DNA from: a virus
DNA length: 64,000 nt
Strand: one strand, 5' to 3'
Virus record (IMG/VR): IMGVR_UViG_3300021962_000066
Span: 1-64,000 of that record
Below the pieces are notes generated by a model that was given only the letters and a program-made list of their open reading frames with translations, did not search any database and was not told the DNA's origin. Numbering within the stretch: the first letter of the stretch is position 1; each line of letters begins with the position of its first letter. The position numbers were made by a program, and so were the translations under genes. Below, piece after piece: positions 1,402 to 11,855 of the stretch.

Positions 1402-2202
1402 ATGTCAAAGAAAAATAAAACGGTTAAGCAGGTTAAGCAGGTTAAGGTCGCTGAAGCGATTGTCACGGTACCTGGAGTGGTTAATACTCTGGTACTCGAT
1501 TATTCTCGATCAGCTGCTGAAGAATTGGTTACTCAAGTGGTAGCTGAAGTGGCTCCTGCGGCAGATCAGCCTTATAATAAAGCAGTCGATGTGCTTCAGA
1601 AGGCATTTATCTACTTCAACGAAGCGCTCGCGGAGAAGGAACTCGATAAGGTCCCGGTCATCACGATTCAGTCGAAAGGTCGCCGGTGTGCCTATGGGTG
1701 GTTCTGGGATTCTACTTGGAAGTCAGGTGATGATTATCGCCCGGAGATCAACATCTCCGCTGAGCATCTCTCGCGCTCAGCTCATGCAATCATGGAGACT
1801 TTGATCCATGAGATGGCTCATATGATCAATGCTAAGCGTAAGGTTAAGGACTGCAATGCCTCTCAGTATCATAATAAGAACTTCAAGGCGACCGCTGAAG
1901 CGATCGGGCTCACGGTCTCTAAGATGGGAACGCACGGCTATGCTAAAACCGAGCTCGGCGATAAGGCTCGGGCTGCGGTAACTTCCTTCGTTGCTTCTAA
2001 CGATTGCTCGGTGTTCGATACGTTTAATCGCGTCGATCATAAGCGGACCTGGCGCAAGATCTTTACGATTCCGTGCACCGAGACGGCGAAGAGCTGGTTC
2101 GAGTCCGAAGCTATTGAGCTGGGAATTACGCAGAAAGATCTGGTGGATATGATCATTACCAGCTATAATAAAGAGACGGCAGTCGTGACTGCTGTTGATT
2201 GA
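1402..2202 (+). CDS. SprT-like zinc metalloprotease domain protein
   Basis: TLIHEMAH (HExxH) followed by YHNKNFK, the SprT-family pattern. Confidence 0.8.
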   Translation: MSKKNKTVKQVKQVKVAEAIVTVPGVVNTLVLDYSRSAAEELVTQVVAEVAPAADQPYNKAVDVLQKAFIYFNEALAEKELDKVPVITIQSKGRRCAYGWFWDSTWKSGDDYRPEINISAEHLSRSAHAIMETLIHEMAHMINAKRKVKDCNASQYHNKNFKATAEAIGLTVSKMGTHGYAKTELGDKARAAVTSFVASNDCSVFDTFNRVDHKRTWRKIFTIPCTETAKSWFESEAIELGITQKDLVDMIITSYNKETAVVTAVD

Positions 2203-7395: not shown

Positions 7396-7473
7396 AAACG
7401 CCTCTTACTAGTTAATTAAATTCATGGAGCCTAGGTTTATTTCTAGGCTCCTTTCTTTTATATAGTCGAACGG

Positions 7474-7582
7474 TTAATTTCCCTACCGAATTCTATTGAT
7501 TGTTCCTTCTCGATATATTATTATAAATAAAGAATTAAGAATGAATCTTAATTAAGAAACAAAAGAAAGAAAAAACAAAATG
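7474..7582 (+). repeat. Promoter/leader repeat family B, copy 1
   Basis: GAATTC-TATTGATT-17-TATTAT, then a purine-rich leader to ATG; 7485-7580 identical to 7909-8004. Confidence 0.95.
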
Positions 7583-7834
7583 AAAATTAAATATAATATT
7601 ATTAGAAATGAAATGGAAGGGCCTAATATTAATGATGTAGGAGAGTTCAAGGTGAGTAAGTGGGAAAGGTATGAGTTGACTGATAAGTTTAATGAAAAAC
7701 TTGGTGAAGAGTATTTATTTAGGGCTAAAAGTGAGAGTGAGTTTAGGAAGCACTATAAGGTAATTACAAAAGATGATTGGATGGTGATGATAGATATGGA
7801 TCACTATGAGGTCATCAACTTTGTAAAAGCTTAA
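7580..7834 (+). CDS. Hypothetical cassette protein (C-poor gene)
   Basis: ATG at the end of repeat B1; followed by a terminator. Confidence 0.8.
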   Translation: MKIKYNIIRNEMEGPNINDVGEFKVSKWERYELTDKFNEKLGEEYLFRAKSESEFRKHYKVITKDDWMVMIDMDHYEVINFVKA

Positions 7835-7847
7835 TGTAAGTCGGAAG

Positions 7848-7882
7848 GAATTCCATCTGGTAATTCAGATGGAACTTTTTTA
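7848..7882 (+). terminator. Intrinsic terminator, repeated at 8838
   Basis: TCCATCTGGTAATTCAGATGGA hairpin plus T-run. Confidence 0.8.
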
Positions 7883-7904
7883 ATTATAATTTCCCTAAGA
7901 TAAT

Positions 7905-8007
7905 CCCGACCGAATTCTATTGATTGTTCCTTCTCGATATATTATTATAAATAAAGAATTAAGAATGAATCTTAATTAAGAAACAAAAGAAAGAAAAAAC
8001 AAAAATG
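7905..8007 (+). repeat. Promoter/leader repeat family B, copy 2
   Basis: 96 nt identical to copy 1. Confidence 0.95.
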
Positions 8008-8163
8008 AAAATCGTAATAGAGGTGAATGATGAATGGCTCAATAAGCAAGTAGAGAAACAAGAGAGACCGCTTAAAGTGATTAAGGATGATGTAAAGAAC
8101 TTCTTTACTGATTATGCAAAGAATCCAGATCTGCTTATTGACCGAGGAGTGTTCAACTACTAA
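8005..8163 (+). CDS. 52-aa cassette protein (not in ORF track)
   Basis: MKIVIEVNDEWLNKQVEKQERPLKVIKDDVKNFFTDYAKNPDLLIDRGVFNY*, begins at the end of repeat B2. Confidence 0.75.
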   Translation: MKIVIEVNDEWLNKQVEKQERPLKVIKDDVKNFFTDYAKNPDLLIDRGVFNY

Positions 8164-8210
8164 GCACCTTACCTGGCACGCAATACTGAATGATTAGCAG
8201 AGGGAAAGCT

Positions 8211-8317
8211 TTAATTTCCCGACCGAATTCTATTGATTGTTCCCTTTGGATATATTATTATATATATTATTAAGAATGAATCTTAATAAAGAAATAAAAG
8301 AAAGAAAAAACAAAATG
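8211..8317 (+). repeat. Promoter/leader repeat family B, copy 3
   Basis: Same GAATTC/TTGATT/TATTAT/AAGAATGAATCTTAAT...CAAAATG layout with some substitutions. Confidence 0.95.
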
Positions 8318-8605
8318 AACAAATACAAGAAAGTGACAGTGTATACGGAATACGCAGAGAATTCCATTCAGGACATTAAAGTGTTTAGGTTGGGGCTCCT
8401 CCTTACGGGACCGAACGAGATTACGGCAAAGGACATGGACTGCGGAACAGGAATCACGATGATGATCCCCGAGGGTGATAAATGGTATGACAAAGTGGAC
8501 TCACAACAGGTAAAGGGAGGATGGGATGCAGAGGCATTCGCAGAATGGGACACATTGTGCAGCAATATTGGCAACTCAAAGGACTTTATGGTAGGACAAA
8601 TGTAA
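8315..8605 (+). CDS. Hypothetical cassette protein (start moved to ATG 8315)
   Basis: ATG at the end of repeat B3. Confidence 0.8.
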   Translation: MNKYKKVTVYTEYAENSIQDIKVFRLGLLLTGPNEITAKDMDCGTGITMMIPEGDKWYDKVDSQQVKGGWDAEAFAEWDTLCSNIGNSKDFMVGQM

Positions 8606-8629
8606 GGTAACTAATAAGGAAACAACAAA

Positions 8630-8824
8630 ATGAATAATAATAAAATTAAGATGGGTGTGGTAGAGGTTGATGGTATTAAGATTGGAGATAATGTGGGAGA
8701 TGGAAGGGTGGTAGGGTTTAGAGAAGTAAATGGAGTGTGGAAGGTAGATATGGTGGAGTGTGGTGATGAGGGCTGGACTTTTGATATTGAAGAGGTAACT
8801 AATATTGGAGATGTAACTATATAA
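8630..8824 (+). CDS. Hypothetical 64-aa protein from an almost cytosine-free gene
   Basis: AAGGA SD-like sequence plus ACAAAATG start; followed by the repeated terminator. Confidence 0.75.
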   Translation: MNNNKIKMGVVEVDGIKIGDNVGDGRVVGFREVNGVWKVDMVECGDEGWTFDIEEVTNIGDVTI

Positions 8825-8837
8825 GATTAATAGAGGG

Positions 8838-8870
8838 AGCTCCATCTGGTAATTCAGATGGAGCTTTTTT
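8838..8870 (+). terminator. Intrinsic terminator, same 22-nt core as 7852-7873
   Basis: AGCTCCATCTGGTAATTCAGATGGAGCT plus T-run. Confidence 0.8.
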
Positions 8871-9007
8871 ATTAGGCACATCGGCGTAGGAGTGCAGAAG
8901 GAAAGCTGATCACCGTATACAAGAGACTTATTGAAACAAACTCAAACATTTAAAATAGTTGTTGCACTTCTAAGATAAACGAGCTATTATCTTAATATTA
9001 ATTAAAT

Positions 9008-9355
9008 ATGAATATAAAAATTCTTCACACCCTTCCGTTAATAGTTGTTATAGTTTGTTTATATATTGTTTTTACTGTAGAGCAAAAAATAAATATAGAC
9101 CAGTCTAATCAAACTGATACAAAAAATCAGAAAGAGTTTAATACCTCGCCAGATGTTACCAAAAAAACATATGAAGTTATTTGGTATACCGATGCAGCTC
9201 CTACCCTCTTTAAGACAGATAAGCTCAGGACAGCTTTAGACTATATCATAACTTATCGTAAGTATCACGAAATGTATCTTAAGATTACAGACGACGAAGC
9301 AAGTTGGACATTGTATGTACCCACGAACGAGGTTGGCCAGCTAGGCTTTGACTGA
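9008..9355 (+). CDS. Membrane-anchored hypothetical protein
   Basis: N-terminal hydrophobic helix LPLIVVIVCLYIVF; TTGCAC...TATTAT promoter upstream. Confidence 0.7.
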   Translation: MNIKILHTLPLIVVIVCLYIVFTVEQKINIDQSNQTDTKNQKEFNTSPDVTKKTYEVIWYTDAAPTLFKTDKLRTALDYIITYRKYHEMYLKITDDEASWTLYVPTNEVGQLGFD

Positions 9356-9367
9356 CTGTAGACTAGT

Positions 9368-9436
9368 AACCCTTTGCAGGGGATGTCTTATATAGGTTTA
9401 TTCTTTTACCCTATTTAAGACTCCTGCAAAGGGTTC
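9368..9436. terminator. Long imperfect hairpin between convergent gene blocks
   Basis: AACCCTTTGCAGG / CCTGCAAAGGGTT outer stem with GTCTTA...TAAGAC inner stem. Confidence 0.65.
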
Positions 9437-9514
9437 CACTTTTCTTTTAAGCAACCGGCTCGACTGTCTGACAGCTTTGACCCTAAACCCTACTGAGGGC
9501 TGCTTCGTATAGGT

Positions 9515-9706
9515 TTAATCTTCCCAGTACGGCTCGTCTAGCTCGCGATAGTCGCCTTCAGGTTGTCCGATTCCGCAGTTGTCTCTAAACTTGCTGCAGC
9601 AATCCAGGCACAGTCTCCCGGCGTATACTCCAAACGAGTACCGCACATCTACGTTCTTCGTTGAGCCGCACGAAGTGCAGTCATCTTGTTCGTTATCAAT
9701 TTTCAT
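9515..9706 (-). CDS. Small Cys-rich (zinc-finger-like) protein
   Basis: CTSC and CLDC pairs; AAGGA SD plus ACAAAATG start. Confidence 0.7.
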   Translation of the reverse strand: MKIDNEQDDCTSCGSTKNVDVRYSFGVYAGRLCLDCCSKFRDNCGIGQPEGDYRELDEPYWED

Positions 9707-9728
9707 TTTGTCTTCCTTTTTATTTAAC

Positions 9729-9926
9729 TCACTCTTTAATCTTAATTAACTTCCTACCGCCACTTAATAAAACTTCCTCTTTAATATTATATACCCAGTC
9801 ACTGCCGTGCACCTCACCCACTATGCCTTTTAGTTTTATAGACTTAATCGGGTATCCATCTCCTCCATAGAAGCCTTCGCACTTAAACTTTCCCTTCACT
9901 ATTAGCCATCCATTTTTTATTTTCAT
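9729..9926 (-). CDS. Hypothetical cassette protein (start moved to 9926)
   Basis: ATG at the end of inverted repeat B4; MKIKNGWL... Confidence 0.75.
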   Translation of the reverse strand: MKIKNGWLIVKGKFKCEGFYGGDGYPIKSIKLKGIVGEVHGSDWVYNIKEEVLLSGGRKLIKIKE

Positions 9927-10016
9927 TTTGTTTTTTCTTTCTTTTATTTCTTTATTAAGATTCATTCTTAATAATATATATAATAATATATTGAGAGGGA
10001 ACAGTCAAGAGAATTC
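9924..10016 (-). repeat. Promoter/leader repeat family B, copy 4 (inverted)
   Basis: Reverse complement reads GAATTC..TTGACT-17-TATTAT...AAGAATGAATCTTAATAAAGAAATAAAAGAAAGAAAAAACAAAATG, leader identical to copy 3. Confidence 0.95.
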
Positions 10017-10145
10017 CATAAGGATATTAAGAGGGATTACAATATTTAATTTAATTCCTTATGTGGTGCAGATCAAATGTCAATATAAAAAACAAAATAA
10101 AATACCCAGCTCGTTTCCAAGCTGGGTACCTTATTATTATTATTA

Positions 10146-10499
10146 TTAAAGTCTAATAATAATATCCATTTCGGGGACCCCATATGTAGCATTATATGTT
10201 ACATATAAGTAATCAACTTCCTCATCTTTTAATTTTTTCATTAACGGGCCCATATACGTTATGCCACTTCCATCTACCATCTCTTGTAGCAATCTCGTTC
10301 TCGCGGCTCTTATCTCTTCGCAGTCCATCTTCATATCCATCATCATTGTATTAATCAGTTCACTTAGCATCCCCCCTCCCTCGTGCTCTCCATTTTTCTC
10401 TAATATTACCTGATCCAATACCGAGTGCATTACCTCACTAAGATGTACCTTCTTAGTTGCCATATCGTAACCTAATTCTTTTCTTATTTCTTTTTTCAT
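10146..10499 (-). CDS. Hypothetical cassette protein
   Basis: ATG at the end of inverted repeat B5; terminator-like hairpin TACCCAGC..GCTGGGTA at about 10103-10128. Confidence 0.8.
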   Translation of the reverse strand: MKKEIRKELGYDMATKKVHLSEVMHSVLDQVILEKNGEHEGGGMLSELINTMMMDMKMDCEEIRAARTRLLQEMVDGSGITYMGPLMKKLKDEEVDYLYVTYNATYGVPEMDIIIRL

Positions 10500-10587
10500 T
10501 TTGTTTTTTCTTTTTGTTTTCTTTATTAAGATTCATTCTTAATAATATATATAATAATATATTAAGAGGGAACAATCGAGAGAATTC
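10497..10587 (-). repeat. Promoter/leader repeat family B, copy 5 (inverted)
   Basis: Same layout as copy 4. Confidence 0.95.
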
Positions 10588-10930
10588 GAGAGGGTTATCA
10601 AGAGGGAATGTCATAAGGGCTAACAGAATGAATAAACTTTTATTAATAGTTCCTTATAGGGTGCATATCAAATGTCAATATACTATAACGTCCTGCGGAA
10701 GGATATATAATTAATATTAAATTATAAAGGGGCATTCGAGAGTGAACTATTAATAAAAAGTTTTTTAATATATATATCCCTCTACGAATCTATGCCGATA
10801 TCCTCCTGCAGAGGGTAGTAGGGTCTAGAAACCAAGAGGGTTCCTAGAAAGCGCGTGGGATAGAGACCCTAAGTACGGAAATTTGTACTATATAGAAAGC
10901 CTTTTTTTTTGCGTAGAGAGCCCATGGCCA

Positions 10931-11030
10931 AATTTTTTAGCGATTTTCCTGACAAAATGCTATAATGGCTTTCCCGTAAAAATTTTTTAGCGATTTTCCT
11001 GACAAAATGCTATAATGGCTTTCTTGTAAA
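10931..11030. repeat. Tandem duplication of a 50-bp unit
   Basis: AATTTTTTAGCGATTTTCCTGACAAAATGCTATAATGGCTTTC.. at 10931 and 10981, 2 mismatches. Confidence 0.9.
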
Positions 11031-11069: not shown

Positions 11070-11855
11070 ATGCTGTCTTACGCCCGATTCTATCTTCAAT
11101 GTGAGGCTTATTCACGTCGCGGGTTTCTTAGCGCATTGACGAGGGGTATGATCGGGTTGAATGTAGCGGCATCTGCTCTCACCCTCCCGACCGCCATTCC
11201 AAGTACTAAGTGGGTAAAGAGTCTATGGGCAGGCTTAGACTTTGAATTTGATGAAGTCGTTCAAACTGGTATACCCGATCTTAGTAAACTGACTAAGATC
11301 GGCGACGGCACTTATATTGATCTCACACAATCTCATGCAGTTTTTTGGCCTATATACTCTCAGCCGGGTGCACCAATAGGGTCTATTTTAGCATCAACTC
11401 GAGGTGGTGAATGGACCGATGCCCACTCCCACCTTGCAGACCTATTACATCGTCAGACTAGCTTAGCATCATTCAATAGCCCCGAGTGGGTTAGGAGGGC
11501 TTTTAGTGCTGAAGGAGTACAGCGAGGAGGCGCCCGAAATACTTTGCGTGAGTTTAGAGCCTTACAACAGAATTACGTTGACATAACCGGTCTACCGGTT
11601 CCACCTGAAGCTCGTAAAATCATCGCGGTCGAGAGAAAGAAGATTATGCAGTTTGTGGCTGATGAGAGAAGTGCTCGTAACAAAAAGTCACAGGATAAAA
11701 AGCGACAGGATAAAAAGCGGACGGTCGGAGTGGGTCGTCTAGCTCTAAAGACTCCTGCTATGCTGAAACAACCGTATCGCTATGACCCTGATGTTTCAGA
11801 CGAACATCGAGAGGATGATATGGTCAGAGATATAGGTGAAGCGGTGAAACAGTGA
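11070..11855 (+). CDS. Late protein with twin-arginine-like motif near the N-terminus
   Basis: Late promoter; SRRGFL followed by a hydrophobic/Ala-rich stretch. Confidence 0.7.
   Translation: MLSYARFYLQCEAYSRRGFLSALTRGMIGLNVAASALTLPTAIPSTKWVKSLWAGLDFEFDEVVQTGIPDLSKLTKIGDGTYIDLTQSHAVFWPIYSQPGAPIGSILASTRGGEWTDAHSHLADLLHRQTSLASFNSPEWVRRAFSAEGVQRGGARNTLREFRALQQNYVDITGLPVPPEARKIIAVERKKIMQFVADERSARNKKSQDKKRQDKKRTVGVGRLALKTPAMLKQPYRYDPDVSDEHREDDMVRDIGEAVKQ

What the first reader, a model, noticed from the sequence alone, without database searches (positions are those of the whole stretch)
8627..8824. An almost cytosine-free gene, with C-depletion across several family-B cassettes
Seen (hand counts): 8630-8824 has only 4 C in 195 nt on the coding strand and none in its first 143 nt, while G is abundant. 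The protein therefore has no Ala, Pro, Ser, Leu, Gln or His. Other cassette genes are also C-poor on their coding strands: about 15/255 for 7580-7834, about 15/198 for 9729-9926 and about 36/354 for 10146-10499. The bias flips with gene orientation, so it follows the transcript and not the replication strand. Inference: selection on the mRNA itself. Options are expression under CTP depletion or C-analogue terminators (viperin ddhCTP), avoidance of C-containing RNase sites such as MazF ACA, or structure-free messages for immediate-early translation. These may be anti-defence genes whose nucleotide composition is part of their function.
Basis: partly seen in the sequence, partly recalled or inferred. 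Interest (0 to 1): 0.78.

Follow-up and report, generated by a model that had tools for sequence, protein, structure and literature searches.

The report
Phage early gene nearly without cytosine
A small early gene of an uncultured water phage is written almost without the letter C, and its relatives in other phages lie in stretches of over 600 bases with no C at all, a strong and apparently undescribed constraint whose cause is still open.

Summary
8630-8824 has 4 C in 195 nt and is the most C-poor of 104 genes I called on this 83.8-kb phage contig. That is far below what its protein and the contig's codon usage predict (14.7 expected, P = 2e-5).

It is a real, conserved 64-codon gene. It is the second gene of one of five promoter-leader cassettes and ends at a strong terminator. 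The two relatives for which I could get DNA have zero C. They lie in C-free runs of at least 643 and 693 nt that cover three small genes each, plus spacers. 39 of 49 family proteins contain none of the five amino acids whose codons need C. A second cassette gene family (9729-9926) shows the same pattern.

The window's copy is therefore a relaxed member of a class of "three-letter" early genes. Selection on the transcribed unit is well supported; the agent is not identified. Lack of RNA structure is shown, but it follows from any loss of C.

Earlier agents of this scan noted the same phenomenon on other phage DNA. I found no published description.

The parts
8630..8824 (+). 64-codon gene, 4 C in 195 nt. 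It is a relaxed member of a family that most relatives write without C.
   Evidence: Homologs. Predicted small beta-barrel, pLDDT 76.
8627..8772 (+). Longest C-free run of the contig (146 nt).
   Evidence: The next longest run is 51 nt; the maximum in simulations was 85.
8828..8874 (+). Intrinsic terminator: GC-rich hairpin 8838-8865 followed by a U run. It ends the operon.
   Evidence: MFE -26.2 kcal/mol, z = -7.35, 0 of 200 shuffles fold as well.
8215..8314 (+). Cassette copy 3 (TTGATT-17-TATTAT promoter-like site plus A-rich leader with a small hairpin). It heads the operon that holds the gene.
8315..8605 (+). First gene of the same operon, 96 codons, with ordinary C content (49 C, not depleted).
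   Evidence: P = 0.99.
7480..7579 (+). Cassette copy 1.
7580..7834 (+). 84-codon cassette gene with 15 C in 255 nt; moderately depleted at synonymous sites.
   Evidence: P = 5.8e-4. Terminator-like site 7851-7874.
7904..8004 (+). Cassette copy 2.
8005..8163 (+). 52-codon cassette gene, not C-depleted (21 C in 159 nt).
   Evidence: P = 0.79.
9927..10036 (-). Cassette copy 4.
9729..9926 (-). 65-codon cassette gene with 15 C in 198 nt. Its more distant homologs almost lack the amino acids whose codons need C.
10500..10607 (-). Cassette copy 5.
   Evidence: In lake RNA-library contigs its leader is joined to many unlike sequences.
10146..10499 (-). 117-codon cassette gene with 36 C in 354 nt; mildly depleted.
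   Evidence: P = 4.6e-3. Terminator-like site 10135-10096.

Best explanation
SHOWN:
- 8630-8824 is a real, conserved small early gene of an uncultured aquatic T4-like phage.
- It sits in an array of swappable promoter-leader cassettes.
- It belongs to a family that most relatives write with only A, G and T on the coding strand. This restricts the protein to 15 amino acids.
- In the two relatives with DNA in hand, the C-free state covers several neighbouring small genes, their spacers and their promoter-like sites.
- The window's copy and its sub-clade have let a few C back in (three Thr codons and one GGC).

INFERRED, about 0.85: C is kept out by natural selection on the transcribed unit, that is, on the message or on the strand it is copied from. 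Protein function, chance, regional mutation bias and double-strand DNA features are less likely causes.

INFERRED, my leading mechanism, about 1 in 3: a C-less message cannot form G-C pairs, and it offers no YC dinucleotides to the termination factor Rho (Rho's C preference is recalled knowledge). Host RNA polymerase could then run through arrays of tiny genes with long untranslated spacers without being stopped. Ribosomes that use A-rich leaders without a Shine-Dalgarno site could start at once on open RNA, in the first minutes of infection. The C-rich, G-poor 40 nt just upstream of each -10 element would then be the opposite signal, acting on read-through from upstream.

The confidence figure below is for this mechanism, not for the shown facts.
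For: Gene reality:
- Codon-usage score of 16.6 for 64 codons.
- 49 family proteins from many metagenomes.
- L001 and L002 homologs differ by 7 synonymous against 4 amino-acid-changing codon differences.
- Stop-free frames in the C-free runs are longer than in nearly all of 2,000 shuffles (fraction reaching the observed length 0.0005 and 0.0025).
- A strong terminator follows the gene.

Selection against C:
- Window copy has 4 C against 14.7 expected from its protein (P = 2.3e-5). L001 and L002 copies have 0 C against 12 expected (P about 3e-7).
- At codons with an NNC synonym, third positions read 1 C of 47, 0 of 40 and 0 of 41, against 22.6% C in long genes.
- All synonymous differences between copies are among A, G and T, except the window's GGC.
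- 30 of 3,178 family residues (0.94%) are A, P, T, H or Q, against 21.5% in the contig's long genes. 39 of 49 proteins have none.
- The second family (9729-9926) has 4 such residues in 324 among its five distant members.
- C-free runs span 643 and 693 nt with sharp edges, next to same-strand genes with about 20% C.

Transcript level:
- In 5 of 5 cassettes C drops at the -10 element.
- The bias flips with gene orientation.

Mechanism:
- The four cassette genes give the four weakest predicted folds among 97 genes.
- C-free arrays fold at -11 to -17 kcal/mol per 200 nt, against -42 to -47 for their flanks.
- Leaders are A-rich with no clear Shine-Dalgarno site.
Against: - Nothing here measures Rho, translation or timing, and the host is unknown. 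If the host is a cyanobacterium it would lack Rho (recalled).
- Rho and RNA folding should tolerate a few C. Zero C in about 1.3 kb, at the price of five amino acids, suggests a cost for every single C, which fits a 'one hit' agent better.
- In this window, genes behind the same promoter (8005, 8315) have ordinary C.
- The C-poor gene lies downstream of a C-containing gene. Its composition may therefore be a relic rather than a working feature in this phage.
- Its one synonymous C, among roughly 8-10 synonymous differences from relatives, is compatible with relaxed selection.
If true, that speaks against a simple ban on C and so against Rho, although not against the 'no G-C pairing' part.
Confidence: 0.33

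Rival explanations
1. One-hit agent at every C. The earliest messages must be finished and kept intact while something acts at each C. Candidates are a chain-terminating CTP analogue (viperin ddhCTP), a lack of CTP, a C-specific endoribonuclease, or an RNA or single-strand-DNA cytidine deaminase. The C-less genes would encode the countermeasure or the first takeover functions.
For: - Strict zero C over 643 and 693 nt, spacers included.
- Loss of five amino acids in 39 of 49 proteins.
Both are what a per-site lethal hit predicts. The depletion starts at the -10 element. That viperins make ddhCTP and stop phage transcription is recalled knowledge (Bernheim et al. 2021, not read here).
Against: - In this window the gene follows a cistron with 49 C and a leader with 2 C, with no promoter predicted between them. 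A processive block would therefore hit before the gene is reached.
- No ACA-specific avoidance: 6 of 70 remaining C sit in ACA, against 8% background.
- I know of no C-specific defence RNase or RNA cytidine deaminase (recalled).
- T4-like phages use host RNA polymerase, whose sensitivity to ddhCTP is uncertain (recalled).
- No function was found for the proteins.
Confidence: 0.25
2. G-less template. The phage replaces G in its DNA by a 7-deazaguanine derivative. The first genes are written so that the strand copied by unprepared host RNA polymerase holds no modified G.
For: - The contig encodes QueC at 80668-81366(-) (TIGR00364, 187 bits against a cut-off of 150).
- QueC is also present in 4 of 5 distant relatives.
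- Unchecked earlier notes of this scan (e1-5834759, e1-5726457) report G-replacement genes in other phages with C-free genes.
Against: - No TGT/DpdA, QueD or FolE was found on this contig at E <= 1. No TGT was found in 5 relatives. All of these are fragments of about 31-40% completeness.
- The four QueC-bearing relatives that I read in full (G001-G004) show no C-poor genes. I found no ORF of 45 aa or more with 4% C or less apart from a repeat shadow, and the longest C-free run was 109 nt.
- Other early genes here, and 8315-8605 behind the same promoter type, contain ordinary amounts of C.
- Small 7-deazapurine changes are tolerated by bacterial RNA polymerases in vitro (recalled, Raindlova et al. 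2016, not read here).
Confidence: 0.15
3. DNA-level avoidance. A strand without C cannot contain any palindrome that includes G or C, so the segment escapes nearly all type II restriction sites, for example as first-entering DNA.
For: It follows from the sequence that no G/C-containing palindrome can exist in a C-free run. C is the only base that a complete ORF can do without, since start and stop codons need A, T and G. The coding-strand orientation therefore does not by itself exclude a DNA-level cause.
Against: - Every cassette carries a conserved GAATTC, and a C-rich stretch lies right beside the C-poor part.
- The switch sits at the -10 element, which is a transcription landmark.
- Protecting 0.2-0.7 kb does not protect a genome.
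- The T4-like terminase suggests headful packaging without a fixed first-entering end (inference).
- An earlier unchecked note (e1-5785062) reached the same negative view on other DNA.
Confidence: 0.05
4. Mutation bias without selection, for example deamination of C on the displaced coding strand of very heavily transcribed genes; or simply a compositional relic of the source of the cassette.
For: - The depletion is bounded by the transcription unit.
- The window's sub-clade shows signs of relaxation: 3-6 residues needing C, and a related DNA contig reads GAC and GCA in this gene (loose end at 8692).
Against: - The lost C is replaced mainly by A and G, not by T. The window gene has G 35% and T 29%, against 21% and 29% in long genes. 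L002's run is 50-60% A.
- Five amino acids are missing over family divergence down to below 50% identity.
- Genes in one operon differ: 8315-8605 has 16.9% C and 8630 has 2.1%.
Confidence: 0.05
5. Not a gene: a chance ORF or a non-coding G-rich element.
For: No Pfam or PHROG family. RNA-library contigs cover the gene, but this does not prove transcription.
Against: A conserved protein family with purifying selection, an ORF longer than shuffles give, and a terminator.
Confidence: 0.02

Closest known systems
PeSL (promoter-early stem-loop) cassettes of T4-type phages RB49 and phi1 (Arbiol et al. 2010, PMC2839356; search listing and passages read)
   Same: Repeated short modules with a sigma-70-like early promoter and hairpin terminators flank small orphan genes in a variable region. 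The same gene occurs behind different modules in different phages (window against L001 and L002). The same leader is joined to many unlike sequences in environmental contigs.
   Different: No sequence relation to PeSLs was tested or seen. The module here includes a roughly 50-nt A-rich leader that ends at the ATG. The paper's main text holds neither 'cytosine' nor 'GC content', so exclusion of C is not part of the PeSL description.
ACA-less, MazF-resistant messages (natural site-free genes and the single-protein-production system; recalled, not read here)
   Same: A message is made immune to an agent by removing its recognition element through synonymous and amino-acid choice.
   Different: Here every C is removed, not a trinucleotide. 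Remaining C in the C-poor genes sit in ACA at the background rate (6 of 70 against 8%).
Rho utilisation (rut) logic: C-rich, G-poor unstructured RNA loads Rho (recalled)
   Same: It is a cellular machine known to read the C content of nascent RNA. The genes here are the compositional opposite (G far above C), and the 40 nt before each -10 element are C-rich and G-poor.
   Different: No Rho dependence was tested. Rho needs several YC, so it does not obviously demand zero C. The host is unknown.
Synthetic G-less and C-less cassettes for in vitro transcription (recalled; the hits for 'C-less' are laboratory templates or unrelated uses)
   Same: A transcription unit that can be completed with three nucleotides.
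   Different: Those are engineered and non-coding. Here the units are natural protein-coding genes kept so by selection.
Purine loading of messages / Szybalski's transcription-direction rule (recalled)
   Same: Coding strands here are generally richer in purines (A 32%, G 21%, C 18%, T 29% in long genes).
   Different: That general skew is mild. This gene has a GC skew of 0.89 and is the extreme outlier of the contig.

Membership tests
'Three-letter' (C-free) phage early genes: a class noted by this scan, with no publication found | Coding-strand C far below what the protein and codon usage predict | tested here: met
   4 C against 14.7 expected, P = 2.3e-5; the lowest of 104 genes.
'Three-letter' (C-free) phage early genes: a class noted by this scan, with no publication found | No C at all over the whole unit: leader, gene, spacers and neighbouring genes | tested here: not met
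   The window has 4 C in the gene, 2 C in the leader, and an upstream cistron with 49 C. The feature is met in relatives L001 (643 nt) and L002 (693 nt).
'Three-letter' (C-free) phage early genes: a class noted by this scan, with no publication found | Protein built from the 15 amino acids that have C-free codons | tested here: not met
   The window protein has 3 Thr. 39 of 49 family proteins meet it.
'Three-letter' (C-free) phage early genes: a class noted by this scan, with no publication found | State kept through sequence divergence, with synonymous turnover among A, G and T | tested here: met
   Remote representatives carry 0-3 residues that need C.
PeSL-type mobile regulatory cassettes | Repeated module with a sigma-70-like early promoter next to small orphan genes | tested here: met
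   Five copies. TTGATT-17-TATTAT (copies 1-3) and TTGACT-17-TATTAT (copy 4) came from the consensus scan; copy 5 (TCGATT) was read from the sequence. Promoter activity was not measured.
PeSL-type mobile regulatory cassettes | Stem-loop terminator as part of the module | tested here: inconclusive
   Hairpins lie at 7851-7874, 8838-8865 and 10135-10096, but none was found after 8163 or after 9515. They lie 30-350 nt from the next promoter.
PeSL-type mobile regulatory cassettes | Recombination between modules shuffles genes | tested here: inconclusive
   Indirect only. The homolog sits behind unrelated upstream sequences in L001 and L002, and only the gene is shared with the contig. Leader 10487-10524 is joined to many unlike sequences.
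ACA-less MazF-resistant messages | The specific trinucleotide is absent while other C remain | tested here: not met
   All C are avoided. ACA makes up 9% of the remaining C contexts, against 8% background.
Phage 7-deazaguanine DNA modification (que genes plus DpdA) | preQ0 pathway gene present | tested here: met
   QueC at contig 80668-81366(-), 187-209 bits.
Phage 7-deazaguanine DNA modification (que genes plus DpdA) | DNA transglycosylase (DpdA/TGT) present | tested here: not met
   No PF01702 match at E <= 1 on this contig, nor at E <= 0.1 in 5 relatives. All are fragments (31-40% complete), so absence is not proven.
Phage 7-deazaguanine DNA modification (que genes plus DpdA) | Modified base in virion DNA | not testable with these tools
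   Needs nucleoside mass spectrometry.
Tudor/SH3-like RNA-polymerase-binding domains (PcrA C-terminal Tudor, CarD) | Significant fold or sequence match | tested here: not met
   Best Foldseek E-values are 0.4 (PDB) and 0.13 (BFVD). That 8hvr chain H is CarD is my guess from its length, not a call result.

The most novel reading that the evidence does not exclude
C-less early genes are a bootstrapping device. At the moment of entry something makes each C of a message, or each G of its template, a potential dead end: a chain-terminating nucleotide, a C-directed nuclease or deaminase, or a modified G in the phage's own DNA. The tiny 15-amino-acid-alphabet proteins, such as this Tudor-like barrel, would be the factors that neutralise that agent or refit the host polymerase, so that the rest of the genome can use all four letters. 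The window's phage would be a lineage in which the pressure has eased and C is creeping back.
Probability: 0.35. Interest if true: 0.92.

Novelty: categorically new. Interest (0 to 1): 0.8.

Why it matters
If selection can forbid one of the four letters across whole genes, promoters and spacers, at the price of giving up five amino acids, then a strong and so far unnamed force acts on phage early messages or their templates in widespread freshwater, estuarine and marine phages.

Identifying that force would reveal one of three things: a new host defence, a new phage take-over trick, or a functional cost of modified DNA. It would also supply natural proteins built from a 15-letter alphabet.

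This window adds three points:
- The state can relax. A few C return first at Thr codons and at one synonymous site.
- Two unrelated cassette gene families share the state.
- The C-poor zone starts at the -10 element of the cassette promoter.

In practice, a simple scan for C-free runs would flag this gene class in metagenomes.

Tried and rejected
Searches that found nothing useful:
- No nucleotide or protein match for the region or the 64-aa protein in the 50,697 phage records.
- No relative in IMG/VR viral contigs with the protein, its alignment, or the second family's alignment.
- The only genome contigs match was a 23-residue stretch in a Streptomyces contig, which I treat as chance.
- No PHROG or Pfam family for any of the eight small proteins. 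Hexapep scored 16 bits against a cut-off of 27.
- No significant fold match. The protein atlas gave only unnamed clusters at 0.86 or below.

Distant relatives:
- Five large relatives reached through the sheath gene (G001-G005, 40-48% sheath identity) have no homolog of the gene and no C-free gene.
- The G-free runs in G002 at 51.6-54.7 kb are shadows of a repetitive gene, which is a different thing.

Relatives with DNA:
- L001 and L002 share only this gene with the contig, so synteny gave nothing.
- Their other ORFs are small orphans and I did not annotate them.

Modified-G lead:
- The 362-aa protein next to QueC has no family and no phage match, so I could not call it DpdA.

Context of remaining C:
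- A YC context is rarer (27% against 44%), but this mostly reflects the low pyrimidine content of these genes, so I draw nothing from it.

Reads and runs:
- Lake RNA-library contigs cover parts of the cassette genes, including 8668-8836 with 14 differences. They are contigs, DNA carry-over cannot be excluded, and uncovered parts mean nothing. I do not count this as proof of expression.
- Habitat labels rest on coded run records. 8 runs hold half or more of the sampled words, and 3 of them may be the source sample.

Literature:
- Full-text searches: 'cytosine-free' + phage (2 papers, unrelated); 'devoid of cytosine' + bacteriophage (2, unrelated); six spellings of C-less or cytosine-less (182 papers, the 30 listed unrelated to natural phage genes); 'C-free' + bacteriophage + 'coding strand' (0); six spellings of cytosine-poor in bioRxiv (52, the 15 listed unrelated).
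- I therefore found no description. Subscription journals and supplements were not searched.
- PMC4122927 was seen only in the search listing.

Host: it could not be determined. The best cultured-phage matches are 36% (terminase, Synechococcus phages B3 and B23) and 46% over 28% of the sheath.
Full report
WHAT IS THERE. The window is the first 64 kb of an 83,783-nt virus contig. IMG/VR classes the contig as linear, and CheckV estimates it at about 40% complete, so 'genome-wide' below means contig-wide. It is a distant T4-like myovirus:
- tail sheath and large terminase;
- gp32-like, DnaB-like and RecA/UvsX-like proteins and a primase;
- best cultured matches of only 36% for the terminase (Synechococcus phages B3 and B23) and 46% over 28% of the sheath.

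Public runs that hold the 7400-10700 stretch are labelled estuary, freshwater, aquatic and marine metagenomes. The host is unknown.

THE OBSERVATION. The segment 8630-8824 has A65 C4 G69 T57, and its first C is at nt 144. For the two minus-strand genes the depletion is on their own coding strand.

How rare this is:
- The run 8627-8772 (146 nt) is the longest C-free run on the contig. The next is 51 nt, and no G-free run reaches 50 nt. In 200 Markov simulations the longest C- or G-free run averaged 50 nt with a maximum of 85.
- I called 104 genes with a simple codon-usage score. The four lowest C fractions are 0.021 (this gene), 0.059, 0.072 and 0.102, all in the cassette region. Every other gene lies between 0.125 and 0.25.
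- In 4,552 ORFs of 45 aa or more from 1.36 Mb of this contig plus related phage DNA, only this gene and one repeat-shadow ORF have 4% C or less.

CONTROL FOR THE PROTEIN. Given the amino-acid sequence and the synonymous usage of the contig's 54 long genes, the gene should hold 14.7 C. It holds 4, and 3 is the minimum possible (three Thr codons). The exact probability is 2.3e-5.

Of 47 codons with an NNC synonym, 1 ends in C, against 22.6% in long genes. The protein itself has 3 residues whose codons need C (A, P, T, H, Q) out of 63. Long genes have 21.5%, so the probability is 2.3e-4.

The same test on the other genes:
- 7580-7834: P = 5.8e-4.
- 10146-10499: P = 4.6e-3.
- 9729-9926: P = 0.21.
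- 8005-8163 and 8315-8605: no depletion.

The claim for 'several cassettes' is thus true for raw composition. After the control it is firm only for 8630.

ANATOMY. Five copies of a roughly 100-nt module lie at 7480, 7904 and 8215 on the plus strand, and at 10036-9927 and 10607-10500 on the minus strand. Each module has a promoter-like TTGA(T/C)T-17-TATTAT site, which reads TCGATT in copy 5, and an A-rich leader with a small hairpin that ends at an ATG.

The C-poor gene is not first behind its module. It is the second cistron after 8315-8605 (96 codons, 49 C), separated by 24 nt, and the scan found no promoter-like site between them. A strong terminator follows the gene (hairpin 8838-8865 plus U run, -26.2 kcal/mol, z = -7.35).

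In all five modules the 42 nt that carry the -35 element and spacer have 9-12 C. The 58 nt from the -10 element to the ATG have 2-3 C. The C-poor zone therefore begins at a transcription landmark.

RELATIVES. The protein has a family in metagenomes:
- 7 further cluster representatives at 58-88% identity, standing for about 155 member sequences on contigs of up to 112 kb;
- more distant representatives found by a profile search of 1.84 billion proteins, with 10 hits at E <= 1e-3, two of which are long unrelated-looking proteins that I set aside.

Of the 49 family proteins I hold, 39 contain no A, P, T, H or Q at all. Only 30 of 3,178 residues (0.94%) are of these five kinds. The window's sub-clade (P0001, P0002, P0003, P0009, P0010) is the exception, with 3-6 such residues each.

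A pattern scan of JGI metagenomes gave two loci, and in both the homolog has zero C. Each homolog lies in a run with no C at all:
- L001 1-643 and L002 2066-2758, each reaching the end of its contig, so the true lengths are unknown.
- Each run holds three small ORFs, with repeated AT-rich spacers that carry promoter-like hexamers.
- The same-strand genes next to the runs have about 20% C.

In about 950 kb of 80 related loci around the sheath gene, the longest C-free run is 89 nt.

The copies are diverging under purifying selection on the protein. L001 and L002 differ by 7 synonymous and 4 amino-acid-changing codons. All synonymous differences among the three copies are exchanges among A, G and T, except the window's GGC. 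Because C-free sequence is rich in stop codons, the open frames in the runs are longer than in nearly all of 2,000 shuffles.

A second, unrelated cassette gene (9729-9926) shows the same pattern at protein level. Its five more distant homologs have 4 C-requiring residues in 324, and two of them have none. The window's close group has 3-4 each. The gene 7580-7834 has only one near-identical relative, which is uninformative.

WHAT THIS MEANS. Chance, protein need and regional mutation bias do not explain the following:
- zero C at synonymous sites through turnover;
- the loss of five amino acids over wide divergence;
- sharp edges at promoters;
- different C content of two genes in one operon.

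Deamination of C to T is also a poor fit, because the missing C is made up by G and A, not T.

A point worth stating: C is the only base that a complete ORF can do without, since start codons need G and stop codons need T and A. The fact that the coding strand is the C-free one therefore does not by itself separate RNA-level from DNA-level causes. The switch at the -10 element does speak against a restriction-site explanation, and so does the conserved GAATTC plus the C-rich stretch inside every module.

I conclude that selection acts on the transcribed unit, and that the window's copy is a relaxed descendant of a strictly C-free gene. Whether its composition still matters in this phage is doubtful. 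The gene sits behind a C-containing cistron, and its single synonymous C is about what neutral drift since divergence would give.

MECHANISM. Nothing in the tools can identify the agent.
- A C-less message is almost structure-free. The four cassette genes are the four weakest-folding of 97 genes. The window gene folds at -20.2 kcal/mol against -31.5 +/- 5.5 for synonymous resamples. The C-free arrays fold at -11 to -17 kcal/mol per 200 nt against -42 to -47 for their flanks. This follows from any loss of C.
- My leading reading, at about one in three, is a message that can neither fold nor load Rho. It would suit arrays of tiny genes with long untranslated, Shine-Dalgarno-less spacers.
- The strictness of the ban argues for a per-C hit instead, such as a chain terminator, nuclease or deaminase. 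I put that at about one in four.
- A G-less template in a phage with modified G gets about 0.15. QueC is present. However, no DpdA/TGT, QueD or FolE was found, and QueC-bearing distant relatives lack C-poor genes in the parts sampled.
- MazF-type ACA avoidance is not seen.

THE PROTEIN. AlphaFold on the 8-row alignment gives a small beta-barrel (pLDDT 76, pTM 0.60). The best fold matches are chromo-, Tudor- and SH3-like domains, including the PcrA C-terminal Tudor domain. Their E-values are 0.1-0.5 and not significant. Function is unknown.

KNOWN SYSTEMS AND NOVELTY. The cassette layout resembles the PeSL cassettes of T4-type phages. The main text of that paper mentions neither cytosine nor GC content. 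Five full-text searches found no description of natural C-free phage genes.

Earlier agents of this scan have noted the same phenomenon on other phage DNA. Those are unchecked AI notes. I used them as leads only, testing the QueC/DpdA lead and comparing with PeSLs, and they are not evidence here.

VERDICT. The phenomenon is real, strongly selected in relatives, apparently undescribed, and of unknown cause. This window holds a relaxed example.

Noticed in passing
contig 80668-81366 (-), outside the window (L003 16668-17366): A QueC (7-cyano-7-deazaguanine synthase) gene. It is also present in 4 of 5 distant relatives. No TGT/DpdA, QueD or FolE was found on these fragments.
   Followed up: partly
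window 10487-10524 (and the same leader in the other four cassettes): In three lake RNA-library runs, many short contigs match only this 38-nt leader and then run on into unlike sequence on both sides. The leader seems to be shared by many different genes in the environment.
   Followed up: partly
window 7535-7552, 7959-7976, 8270-8287, 9954-9971, 10525-10542: Each leader holds a conserved small hairpin (TTAAGA-ATGAA-TCTTAA) with an ATG in its loop. One of the few C of the leader pairs with a G in this stem.
   Followed up: no
window 7580, 8005, 8315, 8630, 9926, 10499; L001 162 and 426; L002 2167 and 2430: Unrelated cassette proteins begin alike (MKIK, MKNKIK, MNNNKIK). The shared module, or a translation-start preference, may extend into the first codons.
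   Followed up: no
window 10930-11029: Two tandem 50-nt copies of a different promoter-like unit (CTGACA-17-TATAAT), just before the gene at 11070.
   Followed up: no
window 9515-9706 (-): A 63-aa protein with two Cys pairs (CxxC ... CxxC), zinc-ribbon-like, second gene behind cassette 4, with ordinary C content (20%).
   Followed up: no
G002 (IMG/VR relative, L092) about 51.6-54.7 kb: A cluster of G-free runs up to 156 nt on the plus strand. The minus-strand 'ORFs' read as VGV/GVL repeats, which probably shadow a repetitive plus-strand gene. This is not the same phenomenon.
   Followed up: partly
window 1402-2202 (+): An early-region protein with a SprT-like metalloprotease domain (Pfam E = 7e-8). 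It was the only Pfam match among ten larger proteins of the 1-18 kb region that I scanned.
   Followed up: no
L001 644-682: The C-free run ends exactly at a TTGCCA-17-TATTAT promoter-like site of the next, ordinary gene. This is the same -35 variant as in sites the window scan lists at 967 and 4287.
   Followed up: no
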